Virus record (IMG/VR): IMGVR_UViG_3300047445_000122
Direction: 5' to 3' (one strand)
Source: a virus
Lineage: Duplodnaviria > Heunggongvirae > Uroviricota > Caudoviricetes
Length of the DNA stretch: 64,000 bases
Below, in pieces: positions 7,425 through 43,740 of the stretch. The position numbers and the translations under genes are program-made. Each line of letters starts with the position of its first letter. Positions within the stretch are counted from its first letter, which is position 1. The notes under the pieces are model-generated. The model ran no database searches. It had not been told where the DNA came from and saw only the letters and a program-made list of their open reading frames with translations.

Positions 7425-7712
7425 GGCTCTGTTGTACGTATCCCACGATTCCTTGTGGCGTTCATACTCACGCACTACGTCCCGGAACCAGGCGGTCATC
7501 TCATTCACAGGGAAGCGACTGGCTTGACCCTCGTTGTACTGGATCCCCGTTCCCGGCGATTCCCAGACCCGCTTGTGGTACTTGAACTTGAAGCCAAAAA
7601 TCTTGACTTCCTTCTGAACATACAAGCGGACAACAGCCTTGGAGTATTCAGCAACCGTCCAGCGACATTGATAGTCACCCAGACGGCCTTTGATCAACAT
7701 GGAGTTGCGCAT
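7416..7712 (-). CDS. hypothetical protein (98 aa)
   Basis: Complete ORF, coupled to the upstream ACP-fusion gene, followed by the terminator at 7376..7424. Confidence 0.4.
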   Translation of the reverse strand: MRNSMLIKGRLGDYQCRWTVAEYSKAVVRLYVQKEVKIFGFKFKYHKRVWESPGTGIQYNEGQASRFPVNEMTAWFRDVVREYERHKESWDTYNRATK

Positions 7713-9070
7713 TACTTGGTGTTGTACAGTTCGCGGCCATAGGCCTGGCTGACATCACCCAGCACGATGTACTTACAGCAACGGCACTTGTCGAAGTTGT
7801 AGTCAGTCGGTACGGACACGATGTCGCGTGGATCGACCTTGACTTCAACCAGGCGGTCGCCGCCGCTGGAGCTGGAGAAGTGACGGACATAGCCCGGAGC
7901 ACAGATGTGCAGACCGTGGGAGCAAGTCACGTTGTCGCGGTCATCGACCTTGGAACGTGGCATCTCGACAGTCAGGCCTGGGTTGTTCTTCATCGTACCA
8001 GTGTACTTGTCCAGGTAGTTGTTGCGTACAACCTTCAGGGCGATGATGTCGCCGTCGCCGTCGATGCGGAGGCCAGTCTTGGTCACGAAGTTGAACAGGT
8101 TCTTGTTGACGCGGAAGGAATGGGATTCTTCCAGCTTCTCGAAGAAGCGGCTGAACTTCTCCAGACCCTTTTCATCGGAGTCTTCCAGGCAGCGCATCAT
8201 CACGCCAGCCAGTTCGGAGTCGATGCGCTTGCCATCGAACGTCACACCCTGGGCGGTCACGACCATCTTGCCACTGGACCAGCGCGACAGAGCACCAACC
8301 ATGTCGATCAGATCGTACAGCAGTTGCAGGTCTTTCTTGTAAATCTGGTTGTTCTGGACGTTGGCCACAATCGCGCTGATCTTGTCATAGTTCTTGTGGG
8401 TCTTGTCAATCTGCAGTGGAGTGCTGTCGCGCACCACAGTCAGAACTTGAGGCAGGACGATGGCCTGGAACGGCACCAGAACATCAGGCTCGGTGTCATC
8501 CGCAGCCAGGGAGTTGGTAGGCAGTTCATCGACCGCCTTCATGATGAACAGAACAGCATCCTTGACGGTCTTGATCTTCTCAACATCTTCATCTGGAATC
8601 TCGATGTCGAACTCATCTTCCAGAGCCATAGCCAGCTCAACGGTGTCCAGGGAATCAGCGCCCAGGTCATCGATGAAGTGGGATTCTGGGGATACATCAC
8701 CGGCATCAACGCCCAGTTGATCAATGATGACTTCGATGGTCTTGTTCAGGATGGTGGTGTTCAGCTCAGGCTCCGGGGCCGGAACGATCTTGGCTTCAGC
8801 CGGGATCGCCTTGGACTTGCGTGGCTTGGCTTCCTTCTTCGCCTTCGGTTTGCGCACACGCTTCGGCGCGGCTGCTTTCTTGGCCTTCTTGGTGGTCTTG
8901 GCCTCAACCTGTTCTTCGGTTGGCTTCGGTGCGTTCTCTGCTACAGCCCAGCGAGCCAGGGTGGAGCGGGAGATACCAACCTTGTCAGCCGCTTCCGACT
9001 TGCTCAGACCATTGGCCTGGTAGTTCTGGAAGCTGATAACTGCTTGGATTTGTTGACTCGTCAGAATCAT
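7712..9070 (-). CDS. multidomain protein: N-terminal HTH, Lys-rich linker, acyl-carrier-protein (ACP) domain, and a C-terminal 250-aa domain of unknown function
   Basis: Residues about 115..185 ([59 protein letters not shown]) match bacterial AcpP almost motif-for-motif, including the DSL phosphopantetheine-attachment serine. N-terminal [20 protein letters not shown] helix-turn-helix. Strong SD before ATG 9070. Confidence 0.7.
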
Positions 9071-12580: not shown

Positions 12581-12858
12581 TACTTGAGAATCGCCAGACA
12601 GCTTTCTCGGTCTTTGTTCAGAGAGTCAGTCCACTGAACCACTGCCATGTCGCGGATCGAAGTGACCAGGGCTTCGACATCCCAATTGGTCAGATCGGCT
12701 TCGATGAACATGACCTTGCCATCATCCAGACGCCAGTTACACACCAGGTCAACCTTCAGTGTCTTCGGGCCGTTGTCTACATCGACACGCATCCAAGACA
12801 CGAACCAACCGGCGTTGATGGTGGCCAGGAGCTCATCAACAGTATACAGACGGCGCAT
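12580..12858 (-). CDS. hypothetical protein (92 aa)
   Basis: Complete ORF with an ATGA overlap to the TAXI gene. Followed by repeat-element copy B with its terminator. Confidence 0.4.
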   Translation of the reverse strand: MRRLYTVDELLATINAGWFVSWMRVDVDNGPKTLKVDLVCNWRLDDGKVMFIEADLTNWDVEALVTSIRDMAVVQWTDSLNKDRESCLAILK

Positions 12859-13841
12859 TACTTCTTGGCCTTAGCTGCTGGGCCGTTGAAGCGCGGCAGA
12901 TCGGATACCGTGGCGTCAACGTTCTTGATCTCATTCCAGCCCGGTTCATAGCGGCCTTCCTTCAGTTCCTCCAGGTTGGAGGCGATGAGTTGCTTCAGGC
13001 GGGCAACTTCTTGAGCCTTCTGGCCAGTGAACGGGCGGGTTACCAGGACGTTTTGGATGGCCAGGGCTGGGATGTTGTAGGCGCCAATGTTCTTGTAGTT
13101 GAACGGCTTGACGTTGTATGGACTACCAATCGGAGCATCGAACGGGATCAGGGTCAGACCGCTGTTCGCATCCAGAGCCTTGATCGAGGCAACCGGCCAA
13201 CCGGCGACAGTGAAGGCAGCTGCGACTTTGCCGGTGCGCACCAGTTCAAATGCAGCTTCATCAGTCTTCACCGAAGTGAAGCGCATGCCGTAGCCCAGTT
13301 GCTTGTTCAGAACAGCGCCCAGGAGCTCAGCACTGCCCACGGCGGCGACGTTCTGGCCGCGCAGGGAGCTGAAGGAGGTCATGCGGACGTTCTTCAGGTC
13401 GCCGTCCATGAAGCCATACTTCTTCTCGCCACGAACGTTGTAGCCGTTGGCCAGGGCCACAATGTGCAGGTAGTTGTTGTTCAGCGGCATGACCACTTGC
13501 AGGGAGGCGATGTTGTCGTCACCTTGACCCATGGTCTTCAGGGTATCGACTTGAGCCAGGCCCAGATCAGCTTGCTTCTCGCTCAGATCAGTCAGGTTGT
13601 CAAGACCGCCCTTGGTGGTCTTTTCGCAGATCGCCATGTTGTTGCCGACAACCTTCTTGATGTCGCGGTACATGGCTGCGTAGCCTTTGTTGGAAGCGCC
13701 GGTGGCGATGGTCAGACCGTCGCAATCAGCTGCTGGAGCGCCGTCCATCTTGGCTGCGTGAGCCGGGAGGGACATAGTTACAGCAGCCAAGATGCCGAGA
13801 GCGCTGATGCTGGACAGGGCGATGAGTTTGGACAGTTTCAC
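12858..13841 (-). CDS. TAXI-family TRAP-transporter periplasmic solute-binding protein (secreted)
   Basis: Signal peptide MKLSKLIALSSISALGILAAVTMSLPAHA. Segments GLTIATGASNKGYAAMY, KGGLDNLTDLSEKQADLGLAQVD, YLHIVALANGY and GKVAAAFTVAGWP align to the TAXI consensus remembered from bacterial proteins. Likely GTG start with AAGGAG SD. Confidence 0.7.
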   Translation of the reverse strand: MKLSKLIALSSISALGILAAVTMSLPAHAAKMDGAPAADCDGLTIATGASNKGYAAMYRDIKKVVGNNMAICEKTTKGGLDNLTDLSEKQADLGLAQVDTLKTMGQGDDNIASLQVVMPLNNNYLHIVALANGYNVRGEKKYGFMDGDLKNVRMTSFSSLRGQNVAAVGSAELLGAVLNKQLGYGMRFTSVKTDEAAFELVRTGKVAAAFTVAGWPVASIKALDANSGLTLIPFDAPIGSPYNVKPFNYKNIGAYNIPALAIQNVLVTRPFTGQKAQEVARLKQLIASNLEELKEGRYEPGWNEIKNVDATVSDLPRFNGPAAKAKK

Positions 13842-20647: not shown

Positions 20648-21724
20648 TTACTCCATAATGTTGAATTTGCGGAACGGCGACCAGGTCACGGCGCTCAGGA
20701 GGTCGCCTTGGAGGCGGCGCGTTACGCGGTGTTGGTAGATCACACCCTTCTTCGACAGGATATATCCATACACCAGAGCAGCGTATTCATACATCAGGTC
20801 GCCGTAACCGACAGCATAGCGATCAAAGATGTCTTCGATCTGGTTCCAGTGTTTGCCCCTCTCAGCTTCCAGGATTTCAGTGGTCTGGGTGATCATGGAA
20901 CCGTATTGAGCAATCAGCTCGCTGAAGAAGTGTTCCCACACCAGGTGACCGCCAACTGGACCAACCAGAGCAACATCATTCTCATGGAAGTTCTGTTTCT
21001 CCTCCAGGACAGCATCGAACTGGTCAATGAAGTCGCTGTAGACGTGGGCATTGGTGACGTGCCAGCGGTAGGAACCCAGCTTCACAGTCGGGTGGATCTT
21101 CTTCACCTCATTGTACATCAGCTCGTGGATGAAACTGAACTCGAATGGGTTGATCGAGCCAGTACCAAACAACAGGTCGCCAGAGCGTTGGATACACTTG
21201 GTGTGGAACTCACCATTCTCCACATAGAAGTGGAGCTCACGATTGCATGGGATGTCTTTTGGTACATGACCTTCACCATACACAGCTTCGATGGCTTCCA
21301 GGTTGTCGATGGTTGGGTCAGCAATCGTGACGAAGGAGCGGCGGGTGTTGATACCGTCATTGCGGAATTGATCAACAGCAGTCTGGAACTGGCTGTAACG
21401 ATGGAGGCGAGGGCCGTATGCGCCGTGCCAGGTAACTCCATCATCGCTGTAGTTCTTTGCGCGGGGCAGGAAGAAGTCCAGGTATGGGGTCACTGCGTTG
21501 GCTCCAGCCATGACCCAGAAGGTCTCAGCGATCAGCTGGAAGATGTTGGATTTGCGTCCGTGGAGGTGTAGGTGGCGGGAGCGGGGATTTTTGAACTCCA
21601 GCGTCGTGTCGTACATCGCCAGAGCGTACCCATTGCGGGTGTCTTGTTTGATACCTTCCTTTTGAAGGGCTTGGAAGGCTCGGTGGATTGTGTGTGAGAC
21701 GGTGTTGCCTCGGATAGTTCTCAT
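20648..21724 (-). CDS. ThyA-superfamily enzyme (thymidylate synthase or dUMP/dCMP hydroxymethylase) with about 90-aa C-terminal extension
   Basis: ThyA landmarks in order: RNGYA, ETFWVM, YGP, NTRRSFVT, catalytic PCN, QRSGDLLFG...N, AHVYS. The sequence continues a further 90 aa beyond the canonical fold. Confidence 0.75.
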   Translation of the reverse strand: MRTIRGNTVSHTIHRAFQALQKEGIKQDTRNGYALAMYDTTLEFKNPRSRHLHLHGRKSNIFQLIAETFWVMAGANAVTPYLDFFLPRAKNYSDDGVTWHGAYGPRLHRYSQFQTAVDQFRNDGINTRRSFVTIADPTIDNLEAIEAVYGEGHVPKDIPCNRELHFYVENGEFHTKCIQRSGDLLFGTGSINPFEFSFIHELMYNEVKKIHPTVKLGSYRWHVTNAHVYSDFIDQFDAVLEEKQNFHENDVALVGPVGGHLVWEHFFSELIAQYGSMITQTTEILEAERGKHWNQIEDIFDRYAVGYGDLMYEYAALVYGYILSKKGVIYQHRVTRRLQGDLLSAVTWSPFRKFNIME

Positions 21725-28564: not shown

Positions 28565-29611
28565 TTAAATCAGGCTGTGCGTTGTCGCTTTCGGCTGGGG
28601 AGCGCCTGCGCCGTTGTACTTCGAGCGTACTTGACCACCTTCCTTCAGCCGCAGATACTTGTCTGTTTCGCACAACAGGTTACTGCCGATGTTGTGGGCA
28701 TCTTCGAGGTGGAATTGTACAAGGGCTTCAACTTCAGCGCTGTAGCCATGCTGAATAGCAACTTGTGGCAATGCGACCTTCACCGCCTCCGACAGTTGAG
28801 CAAGCTCAAGGTAGTGTTGAGCTACCGGGATGGACTTGGTCAGTGGGCGACCATGAAGGCGATTCAAGAAGCGAACCGGGCCAGGGCCGATTGGCGCCCA
28901 GGTCTTCCAATCCGGGGCATCGCGCATGGTCATGTACTTCAAGTCTGCGATTTGCTGACCTGCCATGAAGTCACCGTTGGACTTGGCCTTGGTGAGGCGG
29001 CTGTGATAGCTCTGAAGGGTCTCCCCGGCTTCTGGCGGGCCAATTTCATAGATCGCCTTGAAGACGACATGAGCCAGGAAGTAGCGCTTGTCCTTGCACT
29101 TCTCGTACAACTCCAGGTCACCATCGACTTCAGCCGGGTTCCCGCAACCACGGATCATGTAGGCACCGGTGAACAGCTTGTCTTCCCTGCCGACAGCGCA
29201 GAAGCGGGTATACAGGTCATCAGCGTCATAGCCGTTCGTCAAGTCAGTCCAACCCAGCTTCAGGACGGTCGGAGACCAGTTGATCCAGCGCGCTACAGCG
29301 ACGTTGAACCACATGTCCTTGGAGTGATGATGTGGAGTGTAGAACTCCTTGAACAAAATCTCAGTCTCCTTGTCGTGCATGCGGTTGACGTTACAAAAAC
29401 GATGGTCGCGGATGAAGGTGTCTTCGGTCCACGGCTTGGGTTGACCTTCAGCTTTCTTGATGCGGACGGTCTCCCGCTCCAGTGCCCACTCACAGGCAGC
29501 GATCACATGGTTATGATAGTTGGCGGCGAACTCACCGTTGGCCTTGATCTGGTCTTCCAGGGTCTGGGACAGTTCAACAGCCTTGTCAAGTTTTTCAATC
29601 AGTGTGTTCAT
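28565..29611 (-). CDS. hypothetical protein (348 aa); candidate DNA-modification enzyme
   Basis: Conserved-looking globular protein with no motif I can name. Coupled by an ATGA overlap to the downstream P-loop kinase gene. Confidence 0.45.
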   Translation of the reverse strand: MNTLIEKLDKAVELSQTLEDQIKANGEFAANYHNHVIAACEWALERETVRIKKAEGQPKPWTEDTFIRDHRFCNVNRMHDKETEILFKEFYTPHHHSKDMWFNVAVARWINWSPTVLKLGWTDLTNGYDADDLYTRFCAVGREDKLFTGAYMIRGCGNPAEVDGDLELYEKCKDKRYFLAHVVFKAIYEIGPPEAGETLQSYHSRLTKAKSNGDFMAGQQIADLKYMTMRDAPDWKTWAPIGPGPVRFLNRLHGRPLTKSIPVAQHYLELAQLSEAVKVALPQVAIQHGYSAEVEALVQFHLEDAHNIGSNLLCETDKYLRLKEGGQVRSKYNGAGAPQPKATTHSLI

Positions 29612-38863: not shown

Positions 38864-38920
38864 TTTGTTACTACAGCAGGGTATCAGTTCGCCGGAGCGG
38901 AATTGCTCGACGTGAAGAGA

Positions 38921-38953
38921 ATTATAGACCACTTCTGCTAAGAAGTAAAGCTC
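38921..38953 (-). promoter_or_regulatory. promoter of the tRNA array
   Basis: Minus strand reads GCTTTACTT..GTGGTCTATAAT, about 55 nt upstream of the first (highest-coordinate) tRNA. The 24-nt leader is identical to the one at 43684..43711. Confidence 0.55.
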
Positions 38954-39989: not shown

Positions 39990-40511
39990 TCAACCCATCT
40001 TCTTCCCCGCTTGGATCAGGCGTTTCCGCTTGATCTTGAAGCTGTCGGATGAAGTCCCGCCGAACATCTCAGCATTCGCATACAGTTCGGCCCAGGCAGT
40101 GAGGTACAACATGTGAGAGAGTGGATGTTTCCACAACTCCACTACGTCATCCCCGCGCCGGGTGTGGAACTCCATGTCCATCCTCATGAGTTCAGCAACG
40201 GTATTGTCCTCAGGATAGAGGGCCAGCCATTGAGCAGCGCTCGCTTGGGCATGATCCGGGAACCTACCAGACCCGTCAGCAACAAGTGGCTTCCCGCAGT
40301 CGTGATAGATTTGATAGGTCTCCAGGATCAAGTCATCGTGGACATCGATCTTGCTTTTCAAGAAGGAGTAGTGAGGGCAGGTATCATCAGTCAGCTTCAG
40401 ATACGCCTCCCGCACCCTATAACCATGCTCTAAGACATTCAAGCTGGTTGTTTGGGACGTTTCCTGCATCAGCTGCTCTAAAGCGCCTATAGTGGCCGCT
40501 AGATGTCTCAT
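39990..40511 (-). CDS. HD-domain phosphohydrolase
   Basis: H...HD motif (HYSF...IYHDCGK). Start ATG 40511 overlaps the stop of the PTH2-like gene (ATGA). Confidence 0.5.
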   Translation of the reverse strand: MRHLAATIGALEQLMQETSQTTSLNVLEHGYRVREAYLKLTDDTCPHYSFLKSKIDVHDDLILETYQIYHDCGKPLVADGSGRFPDHAQASAAQWLALYPEDNTVAELMRMDMEFHTRRGDDVVELWKHPLSHMLYLTAWAELYANAEMFGGTSSDSFKIKRKRLIQAGKKMG

Positions 40512-40813
40512 TTCGTACCTCCCTTGAACAGGCGGTACTTCTTGAAGGCAGGGCGCTGATGTTGATACACAGGCTCCGACGCGAATGAGGTGAACCCATA
40601 GTCCCAATCGGGCTCATGGAACCTCACGAACTTTATCCCGCTGTCTTGAAGTTTGGCATACGCCTTCTCCAGTTCATCCTTGTTCTTGACTTGGATGACA
40701 ATCAGCGAGTTGGGTTCAGCTGTCGGATTCGGGAAGGCCAGGCCGCTCTCTTGGGCAGCGTGGCAAGACTGAACCAGTATTTGCTCAATAGGCAAGTCCA
40801 TGCGAATGAACAC
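40508..40813 (-). CDS. peptidyl-tRNA hydrolase, PTH2 family-like
   Basis: VQSCHAAQ (PTH2 motif is QCxHAA) and LIVIQVKNKDELEKAYAKL...GIKF parallel the PTRH2 family core. Probable GTG start. Confidence 0.5.
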   Translation of the reverse strand: MFIRMDLPIEQILVQSCHAAQESGLAFPNPTAEPNSLIVIQVKNKDELEKAYAKLQDSGIKFVRFHEPDWDYGFTSFASEPVYQHQRPAFKKYRLFKGGTK

Positions 40814-41557: not shown

Positions 41558-41761
41558 TTACATTTCCGACAACGCCGATTCGATCTGGCGCTTGCTATGC
41601 TTGTCCCGCTTTGGGACTACATGAGCCCCGCCCTTGCGAAGGATATTGCTATCCTCACTTGGCTTGTGACGGGGCTTCATAGCCTGTTGACGCTGTTCAC
41701 GGCTGCTCTTCGTCATGACCGCGTCTTGCACGAAGCCATTGCGATACTGGTTGGTACGCAT
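41558..41761 (-). CDS. small basic protein (67 aa)
   Basis: Lys/Arg-rich and probably disordered; coupled to the upstream gene. Confidence 0.3.
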   Translation of the reverse strand: MRTNQYRNGFVQDAVMTKSSREQRQQAMKPRHKPSEDSNILRKGGAHVVPKRDKHSKRQIESALSEM

Positions 41762-42186
41762 TACTGAGCCTTCACCAGTTCGTAAGTGGCAACCACATCG
41801 CGGTCTTTCCAGTTGAACTCTGGGTACAACCGGTTGATGTCAGCCATGCGACCGGAACTGATATCCAGAATCACCAGACCAGGATGCAAGCTCTTGCTCT
41901 GGTCATAGATGTCCTTGGCTTCCTTCAGACCACTGTTGGTGATCGTGCGGATCATCTTGATCGTTGGCACTGCCCACTCATTGTTAGTGGTGTAGGCAGG
42001 GTAGTTGATCGTGACGCGATAGCGCTCACCGAAGGCTTCTGGCTTTTCCAGTCGCTTTTGGAGCGAGTTCAAGTCCACGGTGTTAACGTACATGGGTTCA
42101 TCATCGCCAGCACGATGACGGTGGCGATTCACCTCAGGGAGGATCATCGCAGCCAGTACCTTGGCTTCATTATCAGTCAGGTTCAC
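41761..42186 (-). CDS. protein with a ribosomal L7/L12 C-terminal-domain-like segment
   Basis: TIKMIRTITNSGLKEAKDIYDQSK versus E. coli L7/L12 [25 protein letters not shown]. Confidence 0.45.
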   Translation of the reverse strand: MNLTDNEAKVLAAMILPEVNRHRHRAGDDEPMYVNTVDLNSLQKRLEKPEAFGERYRVTINYPAYTTNNEWAVPTIKMIRTITNSGLKEAKDIYDQSKSLHPGLVILDISSGRMADINRLYPEFNWKDRDVVATYELVKAQ

Positions 42187-42236: not shown

Positions 42237-42896
42237 TTACAGAGCCAGCTTGATGTGGGTAGTGGCGTTCACAGCCGACAGGGCGTAGTCGATTTCATCG
42301 GTCACGGCTGCGATCTCATCTTCCAGAGTCTTGATCAGGGTCTTGACGTCCAGTGGGTCGATCATGTTCAGCTCGTGCATGTCCATGATCGCATCCTTGG
42401 TGGAAGTGATCAGAGCCTGGTTCTGCTCGACTGCGGACTTGTTCTTCACATCAGTGCCCAGCAGGCGGTCGATGGAGCCTTGAACATTGGTCTCGATCTC
42501 CAGGCGGGAGCGTTCCATGTTGTTGGCGGCTTGTGCCAGCTGCAGCTTCAGAACGGCGACCAGGGATTGCTTGTAGGCAACAACATTCTTCATGTCGATT
42601 GCTTCCACGATGGACATTTCCTTGCCATTGATGGTGACCTTGGTTTTGACGTTCGCTTCAGCGATGGCGAACTTGATCGCACTGCGGCGCTTGATCAGAT
42701 CGTCCAGGGACTGATGATTGGACTTGATCGCGGCGGCGACTTCGGCGGCGTCCTTGAACTGGGCCAGAATCGGCTTCGGTTCCTTGCGACCCTTGGTCAG
42801 GGACACGAACAGGGTGGTTGGCTTGGTAGCCGCCAGGATACGTGCATCCAGGGTCTTCAGCTCGACCAGAGCGCGGTTCAGCAGAATTTCAGACAT
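42237..42896 (-). CDS. coiled-coil hypothetical protein (219 aa)
   Basis: Complete ORF downstream of a roughly 800-nt untranslated leader. Confidence 0.45.
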   Translation of the reverse strand: MSEILLNRALVELKTLDARILAATKPTTLFVSLTKGRKEPKPILAQFKDAAEVAAAIKSNHQSLDDLIKRRSAIKFAIAEANVKTKVTINGKEMSIVEAIDMKNVVAYKQSLVAVLKLQLAQAANNMERSRLEIETNVQGSIDRLLGTDVKNKSAVEQNQALITSTKDAIMDMHELNMIDPLDVKTLIKTLEDEIAAVTDEIDYALSAVNATTHIKLAL

Positions 42897-42911
42897 TATG
42901 TAGCTCCTTTA

Positions 42912-43105
42912 GGGTTGATCTTTACGTGTATCCATTGAGATGTTCACCACATTACAGCCTGGCGTACACTCATGGGCCTATTATTGGTCACCACTCAAAC
43001 GATAGCCCAGGATTTCATGAACTGTCAGCTTTGTCGTTTGCGAGAAGCATCTTTACCAATAGTCATCTTTGCGGGTTGATCTTTGCCCATTAATCTTTGA
43101 CCTTT
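42912..43105. repeat. cluster of short direct repeats (T/C)ATCTTT(A/G)C(C/G), at least 5 copies (iteron-like)
   Basis: TTGATCTTTACG 42915, GCATCTTTACC 43047, GTCATCTTTGCG 43063, TTGATCTTTGCCC 43076, TAATCTTTGACC 43091. Confidence 0.45.
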
Positions 43106-43325
43106 GACTGGTCGTCCCATAGAATAGGACAAGAAATGGTTGACATTTAGTTCATCGCTCTACCACTGAGCTACCTATCGGGCAGGAGTCGAACCTGCGA
43201 CATATGAATTGGATTAGTCGTTATCACGCCGGATAATTTTTGGTTGCCACTTTTTATACGGGGTGGCTTACCCCGCCAATAAGTTCTGAGTGTTCGTAAC
43301 TGATGAACATCTCAATGGATACATC
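42927..43325. repeat. 20-bp perfect inverted repeat pair (TGTATCCATTGAGATGTTCA at 42927..42946; reverse complement at 43306..43325) flanking about 360 bp
   Basis: Seen directly in the sequence. The enclosed segment contains ATCTTT(G/A)C direct repeats and tRNA-half-like fragments. Confidence 0.6.
43155..43200 (-). other. tRNA-derived fragments in a permuted order: T-arm plus 3' acceptor-like segment immediately followed by a D-arm-like segment
   Basis: Minus-strand RNA reads ..GCAGG TTCGACT CCTGC CCGATAG | G TAGCTCAGTGGTAGAGC G... No anticodon arm is present, so it cannot fold into a cloverleaf. Confidence 0.4.
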
Positions 43326-43706
43326 ATTAAAGACCCTCATGGGAAGGTATTTAATGATGCGGTCTGACGACTACAGTGGTTGGTCACCGTAGCGGTTCCG
43401 ACAGACCTGATGAAGTTGGGATGGCCGTCCCATTCACGCGTCTGGTCAGCTGAAAGCACGACCTCGGCGGGAACTTCACTTAACATCACCTGGGAGCCCA
43501 AAGCTCTTCGCAGTATCTCCCAGTATCGGGTGGTTGAGCACTAAGCCACCCTAGGTCATTCTCTCCGACAGGCTATGCGGAGTCAGCCTCACCGTGGGAC
43601 TACGGCGACTTGTTTGAGGCTGTACCAGATTCCACGACCCTTGCTCAAGGGTGTCGTTTAGTCCCTCTTGTTATTCGGTAACTTCATTTGCTCGACGTGA
43701 AGAGAA

Positions 43707-43740
43707 TTATACTGTATCCATCCAACCACGTAAAGGGGAC
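43707..43740 (-). promoter_or_regulatory. promoter driving the roughly 800-nt untranslated leader upstream of gene 42237..42896
   Basis: Minus strand reads CCCCTTTACGTG..ACAGTATAAT, followed by the same 24-nt leader (TCTCTTCACGTCGAGCAA) as the tRNA-array promoter. Confidence 0.45.

What the first reader, a model, noticed from the sequence alone, without database searches (positions are those of the whole stretch)
42900..43740. 800-nt untranslated leader with duplicated promoter-leader, 20-bp inverted repeats, iteron-like direct repeats and back-to-back tRNA-half fragments
- A promoter at 43707..43740 carries the same 24-nt downstream leader as the tRNA-array promoter.
- It faces a long ORF-free stretch before gene 42237..42896.
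- Inside, a 20-bp perfect inverted repeat (42927..42946 and 43306..43325) brackets at least 5 ATCTTT(G/A)C direct repeats.
- A T-arm plus acceptor fragment abuts a D-arm fragment (43155..43200) in permuted order.

Candidates:
- a replication origin with iterons;
- a processed stable RNA (a tRNA-like or tmRNA-like remnant);
- a decayed mobile element that captured tRNA pieces;
- a riboregulatory leader.
Basis: seen in the sequence. Interest (0 to 1): 0.75.

Follow-up and report, generated by a model that had tools for sequence, protein, structure and literature searches.

The report
Phage structured RNA with tRNA mimic
The "untranslated leader" is a folded non-coding RNA carrying a tRNA look-alike; it belongs to a large, essentially undescribed family of phage RNAs that sits beside one conserved protein gene, often inside tRNA gene clusters, and its function is unknown.

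Summary
Window 42897-43740 is ORF-free. It lies behind a sigma-70-like minus-strand promoter whose -10 box and first 18 nt duplicate the tRNA-array promoter.

The interpretation needs changing. Every "odd" feature is part of one minus-strand structured RNA, 43323-42927:
- The 20-23-bp inverted repeat is its closing stem.
- The "iterons" are a single-stranded array of (A/U)AAG motifs.
- The "permuted tRNA halves" are a YrlA-like tRNA-elbow module (Rfam YrlA 41.6 bits, E 2e-7, below the gathering score).

Three related metagenomic phages of the PhiW-14 group keep the same architecture with different sequence. 31 of 59 base pairs show compensatory changes, and 95.6% of cells are paired against 35-47% in slid controls.

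The core recurs in T5-like, Vibrio, Bacillus, Clostridioides, Pseudomonas and Ralstonia phages and Erwinia jumbo phages. It is always next to the homolog of gene 42237-42896 (PHROG 1491). In 80 IMG/VR loci the motif lies downstream of that gene in 66, with no opposite-strand hit. tRNA genes lie within 1.5 kb in 41.

Rfam holds at most a partial model (RAGATH-27). No Ro60 gene is in the window. The origin, mobile-element and tmRNA readings are rejected. The function is inferred: a stable RNA, probably a ribonucleoprotein with the adjacent protein.

The parts
43706..43734 (-). Sigma-70-like promoter TTTACG-17-TATAAT. Together with 43688-43711 it forms a 24-nt exact duplicate of the tRNA-array promoter and initial transcribed sequence at 38903-38926.
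   Evidence: (D11). Relatives have TTGACG-17-TACAAT (L007) and TTGACT-17-TAAAAT (L024) at the same place.
43360..43698 (-). 5' domain of the non-coding transcript. It is specific to this clade. Conserved blocks: GAGGGA, GUCCCAC-GGUG, GGUGAUGUUAAGUG and UCAUCAGG. Structure is unresolved.
   Evidence: It is retained in L024, which lacks the 3' domain and the gene. A weak, non-significant Rfam Methylosinus-1 hit lies here.
43322..43359 (-). Hairpin H0, CAUCAUUAAA...UUUAAUGAUG (17-bp stem). Its sequence is conserved in all five clade members. It is the boundary between the 5' and 3' domains and a possible processing site.
   Evidence: I2; helix 1: 8 invariant pairs, 3 covarying pairs.
43277..43323 (-). 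5' strands of the nested long-range helices P1-P4 of the 3' domain. These are the 23-nt arm 43323-43301, GUUACG with the conserved CGAA junction at about 43297-43291, CGAACACUCA at 43296-43287, and ACUUAUUGG at 43285-43277.
   Evidence: I1, I8; helices 3-5: 19 of 29 pairs covary, 96-100% of cells paired.
43259..43277 (-). GC hairpin GGCGGGG-UAAGCC-ACCCCG. It is present in all clade members and corresponds to the hairpin of the Rfam RAGATH-27 motif.
43151..43208 (-). tRNA-like (YrlA-like) module. In order: closing stem UUCAU/AUGAA, UGUC, T-arm GCAGG-UUCGACU-CCUGC, a vestigial acceptor CCGAUAGG, UA, and D-arm GCUC-AGUGGUA-GAGC.
   Evidence: - Window: Rfam YrlA 41.6 bits, E 2e-7.
- L026 has the same module with T stem GUGGG/CCCAC and closing stem ACAGC/GCUGU.
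- Erwinia phage Deimos-Minion has it with a full acceptor-like hairpin.
- IMG/VR locus L078 has it.
43029..43105 (-). It is predicted to be single-stranded.
   Evidence: The motifs are invariant and equally spaced in 4 clade members. [AU]AAG occurs 6 times per 160 nt before the Px helix in 58 IMG/VR RNAs, against 2 in the coding sequence.
43007..43015 (-). AAAU-CCUGG, the 5' strand of helix Px. It pairs with 42958-42962.
   Evidence: helix 9; at least 15 compensatory variants among 66 IMG/VR loci.
42927..42987 (-). 3' strands of the long-range helices. These are CCAAUAAU (42987-42980), UGAGUGUACG (42972-42963), Px CCAGG (42962-42958), the invariant CUG, UGUAAU, and the 23-nt closing arm (42949-42927).
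   Evidence: The closing duplex begins at the U of CUG in 57 of 58 IMG/VR family members.
42237..42896 (-). The gene linked to the RNA: a 219-aa helical protein of unknown function (PHROG 1491, annotated 'tail fiber protein' in many records). It is apparently co-transcribed with the RNA.

Best explanation
The region is not a leader in the usual sense. It is a non-coding RNA transcribed leftwards from the promoter at 43734-43706, together with gene 42896-42237.

Its 3' 400 nt (43323-42927) fold into a closed, multi-helix RNA. A long stem made by its two ends (P1-P4) encloses, in order:
- a GC hairpin;
- a variable insert, which here is a tRNA-elbow mimic (T-arm and D-arm in circularly permuted order, as in bacterial Y RNA YrlA);
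- a single-stranded array of (A/U)AAG motifs;
- a short helix, AAAUCCNNG/CNNGGCUG.

This RNA is a member of a widespread phage RNA family that is physically linked to the PHROG-1491 gene and often embedded in tRNA gene arrays.

Shown here:
- the structure, by covariation;
- the family;
- the gene linkage;
- the association with tRNA genes.

Inferred, not shown:
- The RNA is excised from the polycistronic transcript at the long closing duplex and hairpin H0, in the way RNase III releases rRNA.
- It accumulates as a stable RNA.
- It forms a ribonucleoprotein with the co-transcribed 219-aa protein, with the repeated (A/U)AAG motifs as the likely multivalent binding platform.
- In this phage the tRNA-like elbow additionally recruits or decoys a factor that recognises tRNA shape. 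This would be a Ro-independent analogue of a Y RNA acting on tRNA or translation biology during infection.
For: Structure:
- On 4 diverged phages, RNAalifold gives 56 pairs, 30 of them with compensatory changes.
- With the Px helix added, 95.6% of cells pair, against 35-47% when partners are slid. 31 of 59 pairs change on both sides, against 3-7 when slid. 0 of 500 shuffles reach the observed values.
- G-U pairs are invariant at 70/434 and 62/443, which is specific to the RNA strand.
- The MFE z-score is -5.1.

Family and linkage:
- nhmmer with the clade profile hits next to the gene homolog in IMG/VR L001, RsoM2USA, Bitten and KIL2.
- The same CGAA junction, AAAG array, Px helix and closing stem are seen in T5-like DaisyDussoix, Vibrio Gary, Bacillus Deep Blue, Erwinia Deimos-Minion, Bacillus phage G, Pectobacterium My1 and C. 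difficile phiCDIF1296T.
- 66 of 80 IMG/VR loci carry the motif downstream of the gene on the same strand. There are 0 hits on opposite strands and at least 15 compensatory Px variants.
- The closing duplex starts at the U of CUG in 57 of 58 RNAs, with a median of 13 bp. The 5' junction lies about 40 nt after the stop codon, and most of the commonest junction 9-mers contain CGAA.
- A stricter composite motif (Px plus a closing stem of at least 9 of 10 pairs) hit only beside the gene homolog in 336 kb of other held sequence. It recovered 8 of the loci that carry the RNA and missed the window itself.

tRNA context:
- 20 tRNAs lie in the window.
- 41 of the IMG/VR loci have tRNAs within 1.5 kb. 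All 126 tRNAs are co-oriented with the gene.

tRNA mimic:
- YrlA hits in the window (41.6 bits), L026 (34.6) and Deimos-Minion (44.5). T stems and closing stems covary.

Co-transcription:
- No terminator lies between the RNA and the gene in the window clade.
- In the other lineages the order is gene, then RNA, then a U-run.
Against: - There are no expression, end-mapping or binding data. RNA stability, processing and protein binding are all inferences.
- The 219-aa protein has no recognisable RNA-binding fold and no Pfam match.
- The tRNA-like insert is rare in the family: window, L026, Deimos-Minion, and 1 of 58 IMG/VR RNAs. tRNA mimicry therefore cannot be the core function.
- The 5' domain has conserved blocks but no supported consensus structure.
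- 14 of 80 homolog loci lacked the motif under my pattern.
Confidence: 0.6

Rival explanations
1. It is a cis-acting 5' leader or UTR element that controls translation or stability of the adjacent 219-aa gene, for example by autoregulatory binding of the protein to its own mRNA. On this reading there is no independent trans function.
For: - In the window clade the RNA ends 20-30 nt before the Shine-Dalgarno sequence of the gene, with no terminator between them.
- RNA and gene are always adjacent and co-oriented.
Against: - In most lineages the RNA is downstream of the stop codon and ends in a terminator. It cannot be a 5' leader there.
- A 300-450-nt ornate fold with optional tRNA-like inserts is excessive for a protein-binding operator.
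- L024 keeps the 5' domain without the gene.
Confidence: 0.15
2. It is a genuine Ro60-dependent Y RNA of the YrlA family. It would work with an Rsr protein encoded elsewhere in the phage genome or by the host, tethering Ro60 to an exonuclease.
For: - Sub-threshold but significant YrlA hits in three lineages.
- The terminal stem has a CGAA-containing motif on its 5' strand, at the place of YrlA's GNCGAAN0-1G (PMC4201824). The match is exact in DaisyDussoix and Deimos-Minion (GACGAAAG). phiCDIF1296T matches only the GNCGAA core (GGCGAAUAAC, no following G).
- The order T-arm, acceptor-like stem, D-arm is the same permuted order as in YrlA.
Against: - All hits are below Rfam's gathering score of 69.
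- No TROVE/Ro60 match was found among the long minus-strand ORFs of the window that were scanned. YrlA genes lie within 4 kb of rsr on the same strand (PMC4201824).
- Most family members lack the tRNA-like domain.
- The partner gene that is always adjacent is PHROG 1491, not rsr.
- From my own knowledge, not tested here: E. coli K-12, a host of T5-like members, has no rsr.
Confidence: 0.1
3. It is a GOLLD- or ROOL-like large phage RNA that acts without protein, by self-assembling into an RNA-only particle, with tRNA-like cargo displayed in a variable linker.
For: - GOLLD and ROOL are encoded in phages, often near tRNA islands. [quoted passage not shown]
- The same layout is seen here. The transcript is about 800 nt, the 3' domain is conserved and the 5' domain is variable.
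- Real tRNAs are inserted in the 5' part in L026 and L024.
Against: - There is no Rfam GOLLD or ROOL match, even at E<=10 with permissive filters, in any of the five lineages scanned that way (window, L007, L026, L024, L035).
- The core family RNA is only 300-450 nt.
- Strict linkage to a protein gene suggests a protein partner.
Confidence: 0.1
4. It is a replication origin. The AAAG/CTTT repeats would be iterons bound by the adjacent 219-aa protein as initiator, and the inverted repeats would be DNA structural elements.
For: - The element has repeated short motifs and is adjacent to a conserved gene in either orientation, as with Rep genes and their iterons.
- It lies near a divergent transcription switch at about 44.3-44.5 kb.
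Against: - The long-range helices are 350 nt apart and are kept by compensatory and G-U changes, which only matter in one RNA strand.
- The repeat spacing of 7, 14, 14, 16 and 22 nt is not in helical phase.
- GC content is 0.48-0.50 with no AT-rich block and no skew inflection at the element.
- In other phages the element ends in an intrinsic terminator, and it is always on the gene's strand: 66 same-strand hits against 0 opposite.
- The protein has no DNA-binding or initiator fold match.
Confidence: 0.04
5. It is a decayed mobile element (MITE-like, with terminal inverted repeats) or a pair of tRNA pseudogenes, with no function.
For: - A 23-bp inverted repeat flanks about 350 nt, and tRNA-like fragments lie inside it.
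Against: - There is only a single copy in the window and no target-site duplication.
- The position is syntenic in relatives. The arms have entirely different sequences there yet remain complementary.
- The tRNA-like module has its own covarying closing stem, and only 4-8 nt separate the T and D arms. That is too short for two abutting tRNAs.
Confidence: 0.01

Closest known systems
YrlA (Y RNA-like, Rfam RF02553), the bacterial and mycobacteriophage partner RNA of Ro60/Rsr
   Same: - A stem is formed by the two RNA ends, with a CGAA-containing motif on its 5' strand.
- The tRNA-like domain is in the permuted order T-arm, acceptor-like stem, D-arm, with the tRNA T-loop and D-loop sequences (UUCGA and GG) retained.
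- The hits are significant: E 2e-7 to 1e-8.
   Different: - All hits are below the gathering score.
- The RNA is 3-4 times larger, with an (A/U)AAG array and extra helices.
- The acceptor-like stem is vestigial here (CCGAUAGG).
- No Ro60 gene is nearby. The constant neighbour is the PHROG-1491 gene.
- The tRNA-like domain is optional in the family.
RAGATH-27 RNA motif (Rfam RF03100; candidate sRNA of unknown function)
   Same: - Its consensus (UUCAuUGuUUAcCGAAAACUUuAAAC followed by a hairpin) matches the 5' third of family member L001 at 39.8 bits, E 7e-4.
- It resembles the window's UUCAUCAGUUACGAACACUCAGAACUUAUUGG followed by the GC hairpin.
   Different: - The model covers 86 nt and treats the first 46 nt as unpaired. 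Here that stretch is the 5' strand of long-range helices closing a 300-450-nt RNA.
- The window gives no RAGATH-27 hit at E<=10.
- I found no text on this motif in the paper library.
GOLLD and ROOL, large ornate phage RNAs
   Same: - They are phage-encoded and often lie near tRNA islands.
- GOLLD has a conserved 3' part, a variable 5' part, and occasional tRNAs in a linker (PMC12286853).
- Their function is unknown.
   Different: - No sequence or structure match was found in Rfam.
- The core here is smaller.
- This RNA is obligately linked to a protein gene.
Processing stems of rRNA operons and phage polycistronic transcripts (RNase III substrates). This comparison rests on established knowledge and was not tested here.
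   Same: A long, near-perfect duplex formed by sequences flanking a stable RNA within a polycistronic transcript. Here it is 23 bp.
   Different: No cleavage data exist. In many family members the closing stem is shorter (median 13 bp) and is followed by a U-run, so it may serve as a terminator instead.

Membership tests
YrlA / bacterial Y RNA | Score at or above Rfam's gathering threshold (69 bits) for RF02553 | tested here: not met
   Window 41.6 bits, L026 34.6, Deimos-Minion 44.5.
YrlA / bacterial Y RNA | tRNA-like domain with the T-arm followed by the D-arm (permuted order), closed by a stem | tested here: met
   T stem and closing stem covary between the window, L026 and L035.
YrlA / bacterial Y RNA | [quoted passage not shown] | tested here: inconclusive
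   The window has only CCGAUAGG (at most 2 bp) and L026 has CAAUG. Deimos-Minion has CGGGG-UGAA-ACCCG and L078 has a 7-bp stem.
YrlA / bacterial Y RNA | GNCGAAN0-1G motif near the 5' end (PMC4201824) | tested here: inconclusive
   The window has UUACGAAC (CGAA core only). The match is exact in L032 and L035 (GACGAAAG); L038 has the GNCGAA core only. CGAA recurs at the 5' junction across the family. The motif is too short to be decisive.
YrlA / bacterial Y RNA | Encoded within 4 kb of a Ro60/Rsr (TROVE) gene on the same strand | tested here: not met
   Pfam scans of the neighbours and of the long minus-strand ORFs of the window found no TROVE domain. The other roughly 100 kb of the phage genome was not available.
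YrlA / bacterial Y RNA | Bound by Rsr in vivo | not testable with these tools
   Needs immunoprecipitation.
RAGATH-27 (RF03100) | Score at or above the gathering threshold (76.1 bits) | tested here: not met
   No hit in the window at E<=10. Family member L001 scores 39.8 bits.
GOLLD / ROOL | Match to the Rfam covariance models | tested here: not met
   No hit at E<=10 in the window, L007, L026, L024 or L035.
GOLLD / ROOL | Homo-oligomeric RNA-only cage | not testable with these tools
   Needs biochemistry or cryo-EM.
tmRNA / permuted tRNA gene | Detected by ARAGORN or Rfam, with an acceptor stem, a tag reading frame or an anticodon arm | tested here: not met
   ARAGORN finds 20 tRNAs but nothing at 42900-43740. 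The only Rfam tmRNA hit, in relative L026, is noise at 8.7 bits.
Iteron-type replication origin | Helically phased iterons, an AT-rich unwinding element, and function independent of strand | tested here: not met
   - Spacing is 7, 14, 14, 16 and 22 nt.
- GC is 0.48-0.50 with no skew switch.
- Occurrence is strand-specific and G-U pairs are conserved.
PHROG-1491-linked phage RNA (family defined here) | Closing stem whose 3' strand begins at the U of an invariant GGCUG, and whose 5' strand ends in NCG followed by AA | tested here: met
   Window: GUUACG|AA with CUGUAAU. The same holds in 57 of 58 IMG/VR RNAs.
PHROG-1491-linked phage RNA (family defined here) | Helix AAAUCC-NN-G / C-NN-GG-CUG spanning about 50-65 nt, preceded by an (A/U)AAG array | tested here: met
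   Window: CCUGG/CCAGG, span 53, six AAAG motifs. Family.
PHROG-1491-linked phage RNA (family defined here) | Adjacent to and co-oriented with a PHROG-1491 homolog | tested here: met
   Window gene 42237-42896 scores 1.9e-47 against phrog_1491. The RNA lies immediately upstream here, whereas it is downstream in most other lineages.

The most novel reading that the evidence does not exclude
The RNA and the PHROG-1491 protein together form a previously unrecognised, very widespread phage ribonucleoprotein. It is present in T5-like phages, Bastille-like Bacillus phages, jumbo phages and PhiW-14-like phages. It would act as a Ro-independent counterpart of Y RNPs. It is encoded within or near tRNA arrays and would act on tRNA or translation biology, for example as a scaffold or decoy for factors or defence nucleases that recognise tRNA shape. 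The variable insert, a tRNA elbow in this phage, would be an exchangeable "payload".
Probability: 0.3. Interest if true: 0.85.

Novelty: new variant of a known kind. Interest (0 to 1): 0.72.

Why it matters
A conserved 300-450-nt structured RNA is unannotated in every phage record inspected here, including relatives of the model phage T5. It is covered in Rfam at most by a partial 86-nt motif of unknown function.

Three things make it directly testable in T5-like phages by deletion, Northern blot or RNA-seq, and pull-down:
- its strict pairing with one protein gene of unknown function, which is mis-annotated as "tail fiber" in many records;
- its frequent placement inside tRNA arrays;
- its Y-RNA-like features (terminal stem with a CGAA motif, optional tRNA mimic).

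It may explain part of what phage tRNA islands do beyond supplying tRNAs. It would also broaden the Y-RNA concept to a partner other than Ro60.

Tried and rejected
- DNA similarity to known phages found nothing (blastn, distant mode). The tRNA-like piece alone hit only tRNA genes. L026's RNA gave nothing useful.
- Exact-motif scans returned only chance matches in coding regions. These were IMG/VR with the module sequence and with TCAGACCGCATCATTAA, and JGI metagenome contigs with the H0 hairpin pattern.
- PhiW-14 itself and the 43-54% relatives (L027, L030, L031) lack the tRNA array and gene arrangement at the baseplate-proximal site. L029 is too short to tell.
- Rfam gave no gathering-level match for any lineage. 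Weak hits were treated as noise: Methylosinus-1, snoRNAs, miRNAs, and RAGATH-27 on the wrong strand of L026.
- The 219-aa protein could not be identified. Pfam found nothing. The AlphaFold model (pLDDT 85) matched only a structure of unknown function (3kdq, E 5e-3) and uncharacterised phage proteins.
- The consensus structure of the 5' domain is unsupported, at 8 pairs and -2 kcal/mol.
- Literature searches for a prior description (T5 stable RNAs, phage tRNA-like ncRNA, RAGATH-27) found nothing relevant in the held library.
- The origin reading was checked by composition profile and rejected.
Full report
**Observation.** Window 42897-43740 has no convincing ORF; the longest is 54 aa.
- A sigma-70-like promoter, TTTACG-17-TATAAT, lies on the minus strand at 43734-43706.
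- Its -10 box and the next 18 nt (43688-43711) are identical to 38903-38926, just upstream of the 20-tRNA array.
- A perfect 20-mer inverted repeat lies at 42927-42946 and 43304-43323. It extends to 23 nt and is unique in the window.
- The 8-mer "iteron" is statistically weak. The shorter CTTT (AAAG in RNA sense) occurs six times at 43029-43105.
- On the minus strand a T-arm, an 8-nt linker and a D-arm follow each other at 43198-43157.

**First clue.** A permissive Rfam scan gave one significant hit: YrlA (Y RNA-like) on the minus strand at 43221-43123, with 41.6 bits and E 2e-7, below the gathering score of 69. YrlA RNAs contain a tRNA-like domain in exactly this permuted order: T-arm, acceptor-like stem-loop, D-arm (PMC4201824). 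ARAGORN sees no tRNA or tmRNA here.

**The phage and its relatives.**
- The window is a novel myovirus-like phage. It has no DNA match in INPHARED. It carries a 5-hmdU DNA kinase, an RNA ligase and a gp6-like baseplate gene.
- It comes from a 165-kb JGI contig.
- Its closest isolate is Delftia phage PhiW-14, at 45% identity in gp6.
- Through the flanking proteins I recovered three distinct metagenomic relatives that keep an ORF-free stretch of 800-970 nt upstream of the homolog of gene 42237-42896. These are L007, L025 and L026.
- A fourth relative, L024, keeps only the 5' half and lacks both the 3' half and the gene.

**Structure of the 3' domain.** The four sequences align from a sequence-conserved hairpin (CAUCAUUNA...UNAAUGAUG; window 43359-43322) to about 20-30 nt before the gene's Shine-Dalgarno sequence.
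- The "inverted repeat" has a completely different sequence in each phage but stays complementary.
- RNAalifold predicts nested long-range helices P1-P4, a GC hairpin and a closing stem for the variable insert: 56 pairs, 30 with compensatory changes.
- I added the helix AAAUCCUGG/CCAGGCUG (Px) and counted pairs. 95.6% of cells pair, against 35-47% with slid partners. 31 of 59 pairs change on both sides, against 3-7 when slid. 0 of 500 shuffles reach the observed values.
- Invariant G-U pairs show that selection acts on this RNA strand, not on duplex DNA.
- The AAAG motifs are invariant and equally spaced in all four phages, and they are unpaired in the consensus.

**The tRNA-like module.** L026 has the same module with T stem GUGGG/CCCAC and closing stem ACAGC/GCUGU. 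The window has GCAGG/CCUGC and UUCAU/AUGAA. L026's module again hits YrlA, at 34.6 bits. L025 has a degenerate version, and L007 has an unrelated hairpin at the same site. The acceptor-like stem is vestigial, so what is conserved is the T-loop/D-loop elbow. The module is not a substrate-like acceptor end.

**A much larger family.** nhmmer with the clade profile unexpectedly hit directly downstream of the homolog of the 219-aa gene in distant phages: IMG/VR L001, Ralstonia RsoM2USA, and Pseudomonas Bitten and KIL2. Reading these, and further lineages chosen from a spread of tblastn hits, showed that each has an unannotated 365-640-nt gap after the gene. The further lineages were:
- T5-like DaisyDussoix
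- Vibrio Gary
- Bacillus Deep Blue
- Erwinia jumbo phage Deimos-Minion
- Bacillus phage G
- Pectobacterium My1
- C. difficile phiCDIF1296T

In nearly all of them the gap contains, in order: a 5' strand ending in NCG|AA, usually a GC hairpin, a variable region, an (A/U)AAG array, AAAUCC-NN-G, C-NN-GGCUG, and a 3' strand that pairs back to the 5' end. It is usually followed by a U-run. Px covaries across these phages: CCUGG/CCAGG, CCUAG/CUAGG, CCUUG/CAAGG, CCCUG/CAGGG, CCACU/AGUGG, CCAAG/CUUGG, CUCAG/CUGAG and CUCGG/CCGAG. Deimos-Minion carries a complete T/acceptor-like/D module in the variable region (YrlA 44.5 bits, E 1e-8).

**Unbiased test of the linkage.** I fetched the 80 best of 166 IMG/VR loci that encode a homolog of the protein.
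- 66 have the Px-CUG motif downstream on the gene's strand, 2 have it upstream and 1 has it inside the gene. None has it on the opposite strand.
- Among 58 distinct RNAs the closing duplex starts at the U of CUG in 57, with a median of 13 bp.
- The 5' junction lies about 40 nt after the stop codon, and most of the commonest junction 9-mers contain CGAA.
- [AU]AAG occurs 6 times per 160 nt, against 2 in the coding sequence. 40 of 58 have a U-run after the stem.
- Only one has a tRNA-like insert.
- 41 of the loci have tRNA genes within 1.5 kb. All 126 tRNAs are co-oriented with the gene.
- A stricter composite motif hit only beside the gene homolog in 336 kb of other held sequence. It recovered 8 of the loci that carry the RNA and missed the window itself.

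**The partner protein.** It belongs to PHROG 1491, labelled "tail fiber protein", and has no Pfam match. The AlphaFold model (pLDDT 85) is a helical bundle with a small sheet. Its best PDB match is a protein of unknown function (3kdq, E 5e-3). All viral matches are uncharacterised. The "tail fiber" label is therefore unsupported. A gene with a weak ribosomal L7/L12 C-terminal-domain match follows it in the window clade.

**What it is not.**
- It is not an origin. GC content is 0.48-0.50, there is no skew switch, and the repeats are not in helical phase. Conservation is strand-specific.
- It is not a mobile element. It is single-copy, has no target duplication, and is syntenic with selected pairing.
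- It is not a tmRNA or a tRNA pseudogene pair. Only 4-8 nt separate the T and D arms, and the module has its own covarying closing stem.
- It is not a recognisable GOLLD or ROOL RNA. There was no Rfam hit at E<=10 in any of the five lineages scanned with permissive filters.
- The general layout does parallel what is described for GOLLD: a phage RNA, often near tRNA islands, with a conserved 3' part, a variable 5' part, and real tRNAs inserted in the 5' part of L026 and L024 (PMC12286853).

**Relation to known families.**
- YrlA. The shared features are the terminal stem with a CGAA-type motif and the permuted tRNA-like domain. Three membership features fail: the gathering score, an adjacent Ro60 gene, and constancy of the tRNA-like domain. 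"Works like a Y RNA" remains open. "Is a YrlA" is not supported.
- RAGATH-27 (RF03100). This motif matches the 5' third of family member L001 (39.8 bits) and resembles the window's 5' strand plus GC hairpin. It is probably a partial model of this family, with its "unpaired" 46 nt being the 5' strand of the long-range helices. I found no published description in the held library.

**Mechanism.**
- Shown: a structured RNA, a family, linkage to the gene, and tRNA-array context.
- Inferred: co-transcription with the gene and, where they are adjacent, with tRNAs.
- Inferred: excision at the long closing duplex, or termination there.
- Inferred: a stable RNP with the PHROG-1491 protein, using the (A/U)AAG array as a multivalent platform.
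- Inferred: in this phage, the elbow mimic engages a factor that recognises tRNA shape.

I put about 0.9 on [quoted passage not shown]. I put about 0.4 on the RNP step. Any specific biological role is much less certain.

**The 5' domain (43698-43360).** Its conserved blocks are shared only within the clade, and it has no supported consensus fold. Its survival in L024 without the 3' domain or the gene suggests that it is a separate unit. It remains unexplained.

Noticed in passing
window 43360-43698 (minus strand); L024 5290-5925; L007 9075-9590; L025 4560-5000: The 5' half of the non-coding transcript has conserved sequence blocks: GAGAGGGAA, UUGAGAAAG, GUCCCAC-GGUG, GGUGAUGUUAAGUG and AAUCAUCAGG. 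MAFFT plus RNAalifold support no fold for it. It persists in L024, where the 3' RNA domain and the 219-aa gene are absent, and real tRNAs are inserted in it in L024 and L026. It may be a second, separate RNA.
   Followed up: partly
window 41761-42186 (minus strand); L007 10657-11073: The gene immediately downstream of the 219-aa gene has a weak match to the C-terminal domain of ribosomal protein L7/L12 (PF00542, E 1.7e-4, below the cut-off). The same faint hit appears in the L007 ortholog. An L12-like protein next to a tRNA array and a tRNA-mimicking RNA may be relevant to translation.
   Followed up: no
window 40508-40813 (minus strand): A small protein has a weak match to peptidyl-tRNA hydrolase PTH2 (PF01981, E 1.9e-3, below the cut-off). 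It lies between tRNA genes.
   Followed up: no
L007 11637-11712; L024 4127-4202, 1129-1204, 2340-2416, 5823-5899: Relatives encode a tRNA with a CUA (amber-suppressor type) anticodon, which ARAGORN calls 'tRNA-Pyl'. L024 also has two tRNAs with apparent 4-base anticodons and a tRNA with anticodon AAA. These may be suppressor or recoding tRNAs in this phage group.
   Followed up: no
window 28565-29611, 20648-21724, 7712-9070, 12858-13841: The phage carries a 5-hmdU DNA kinase and a thymidylate-synthase-like gene. This is consistent with hypermodified thymidine, as known for its relative PhiW-14 (from my own knowledge, not tested here). It also has an unusual 452-aa protein that combines an HTH domain with a phosphopantetheine-attachment (carrier protein) domain, and an NMT1-like protein.
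   Followed up: no
window 43097-43125 (+ strand): A sigma-70-like match, TTGACC-17-TAGAAT (10 of 12), lies antisense to the RNA, overlapping the AAAG array. It could be chance: 5 sites were found against 3.3 expected in the region.
   Followed up: no
PHROG 1491 homologs in public phage records (for example NC_031056 Blue_209, NC_055913 gp178, NC_041972 gp207): This protein is widely annotated as 'tail fiber protein'. It sits among early genes and tRNA genes and has a helical-bundle model with no tail-fibre fold match. The annotation looks wrong and is propagating.
   Followed up: partly
L001 4630-4712: The Rfam RAGATH-27 motif (function unknown) matches the 5' end of the family RNA. The Rfam model appears to capture only about a quarter of a larger RNA.
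   Followed up: partly
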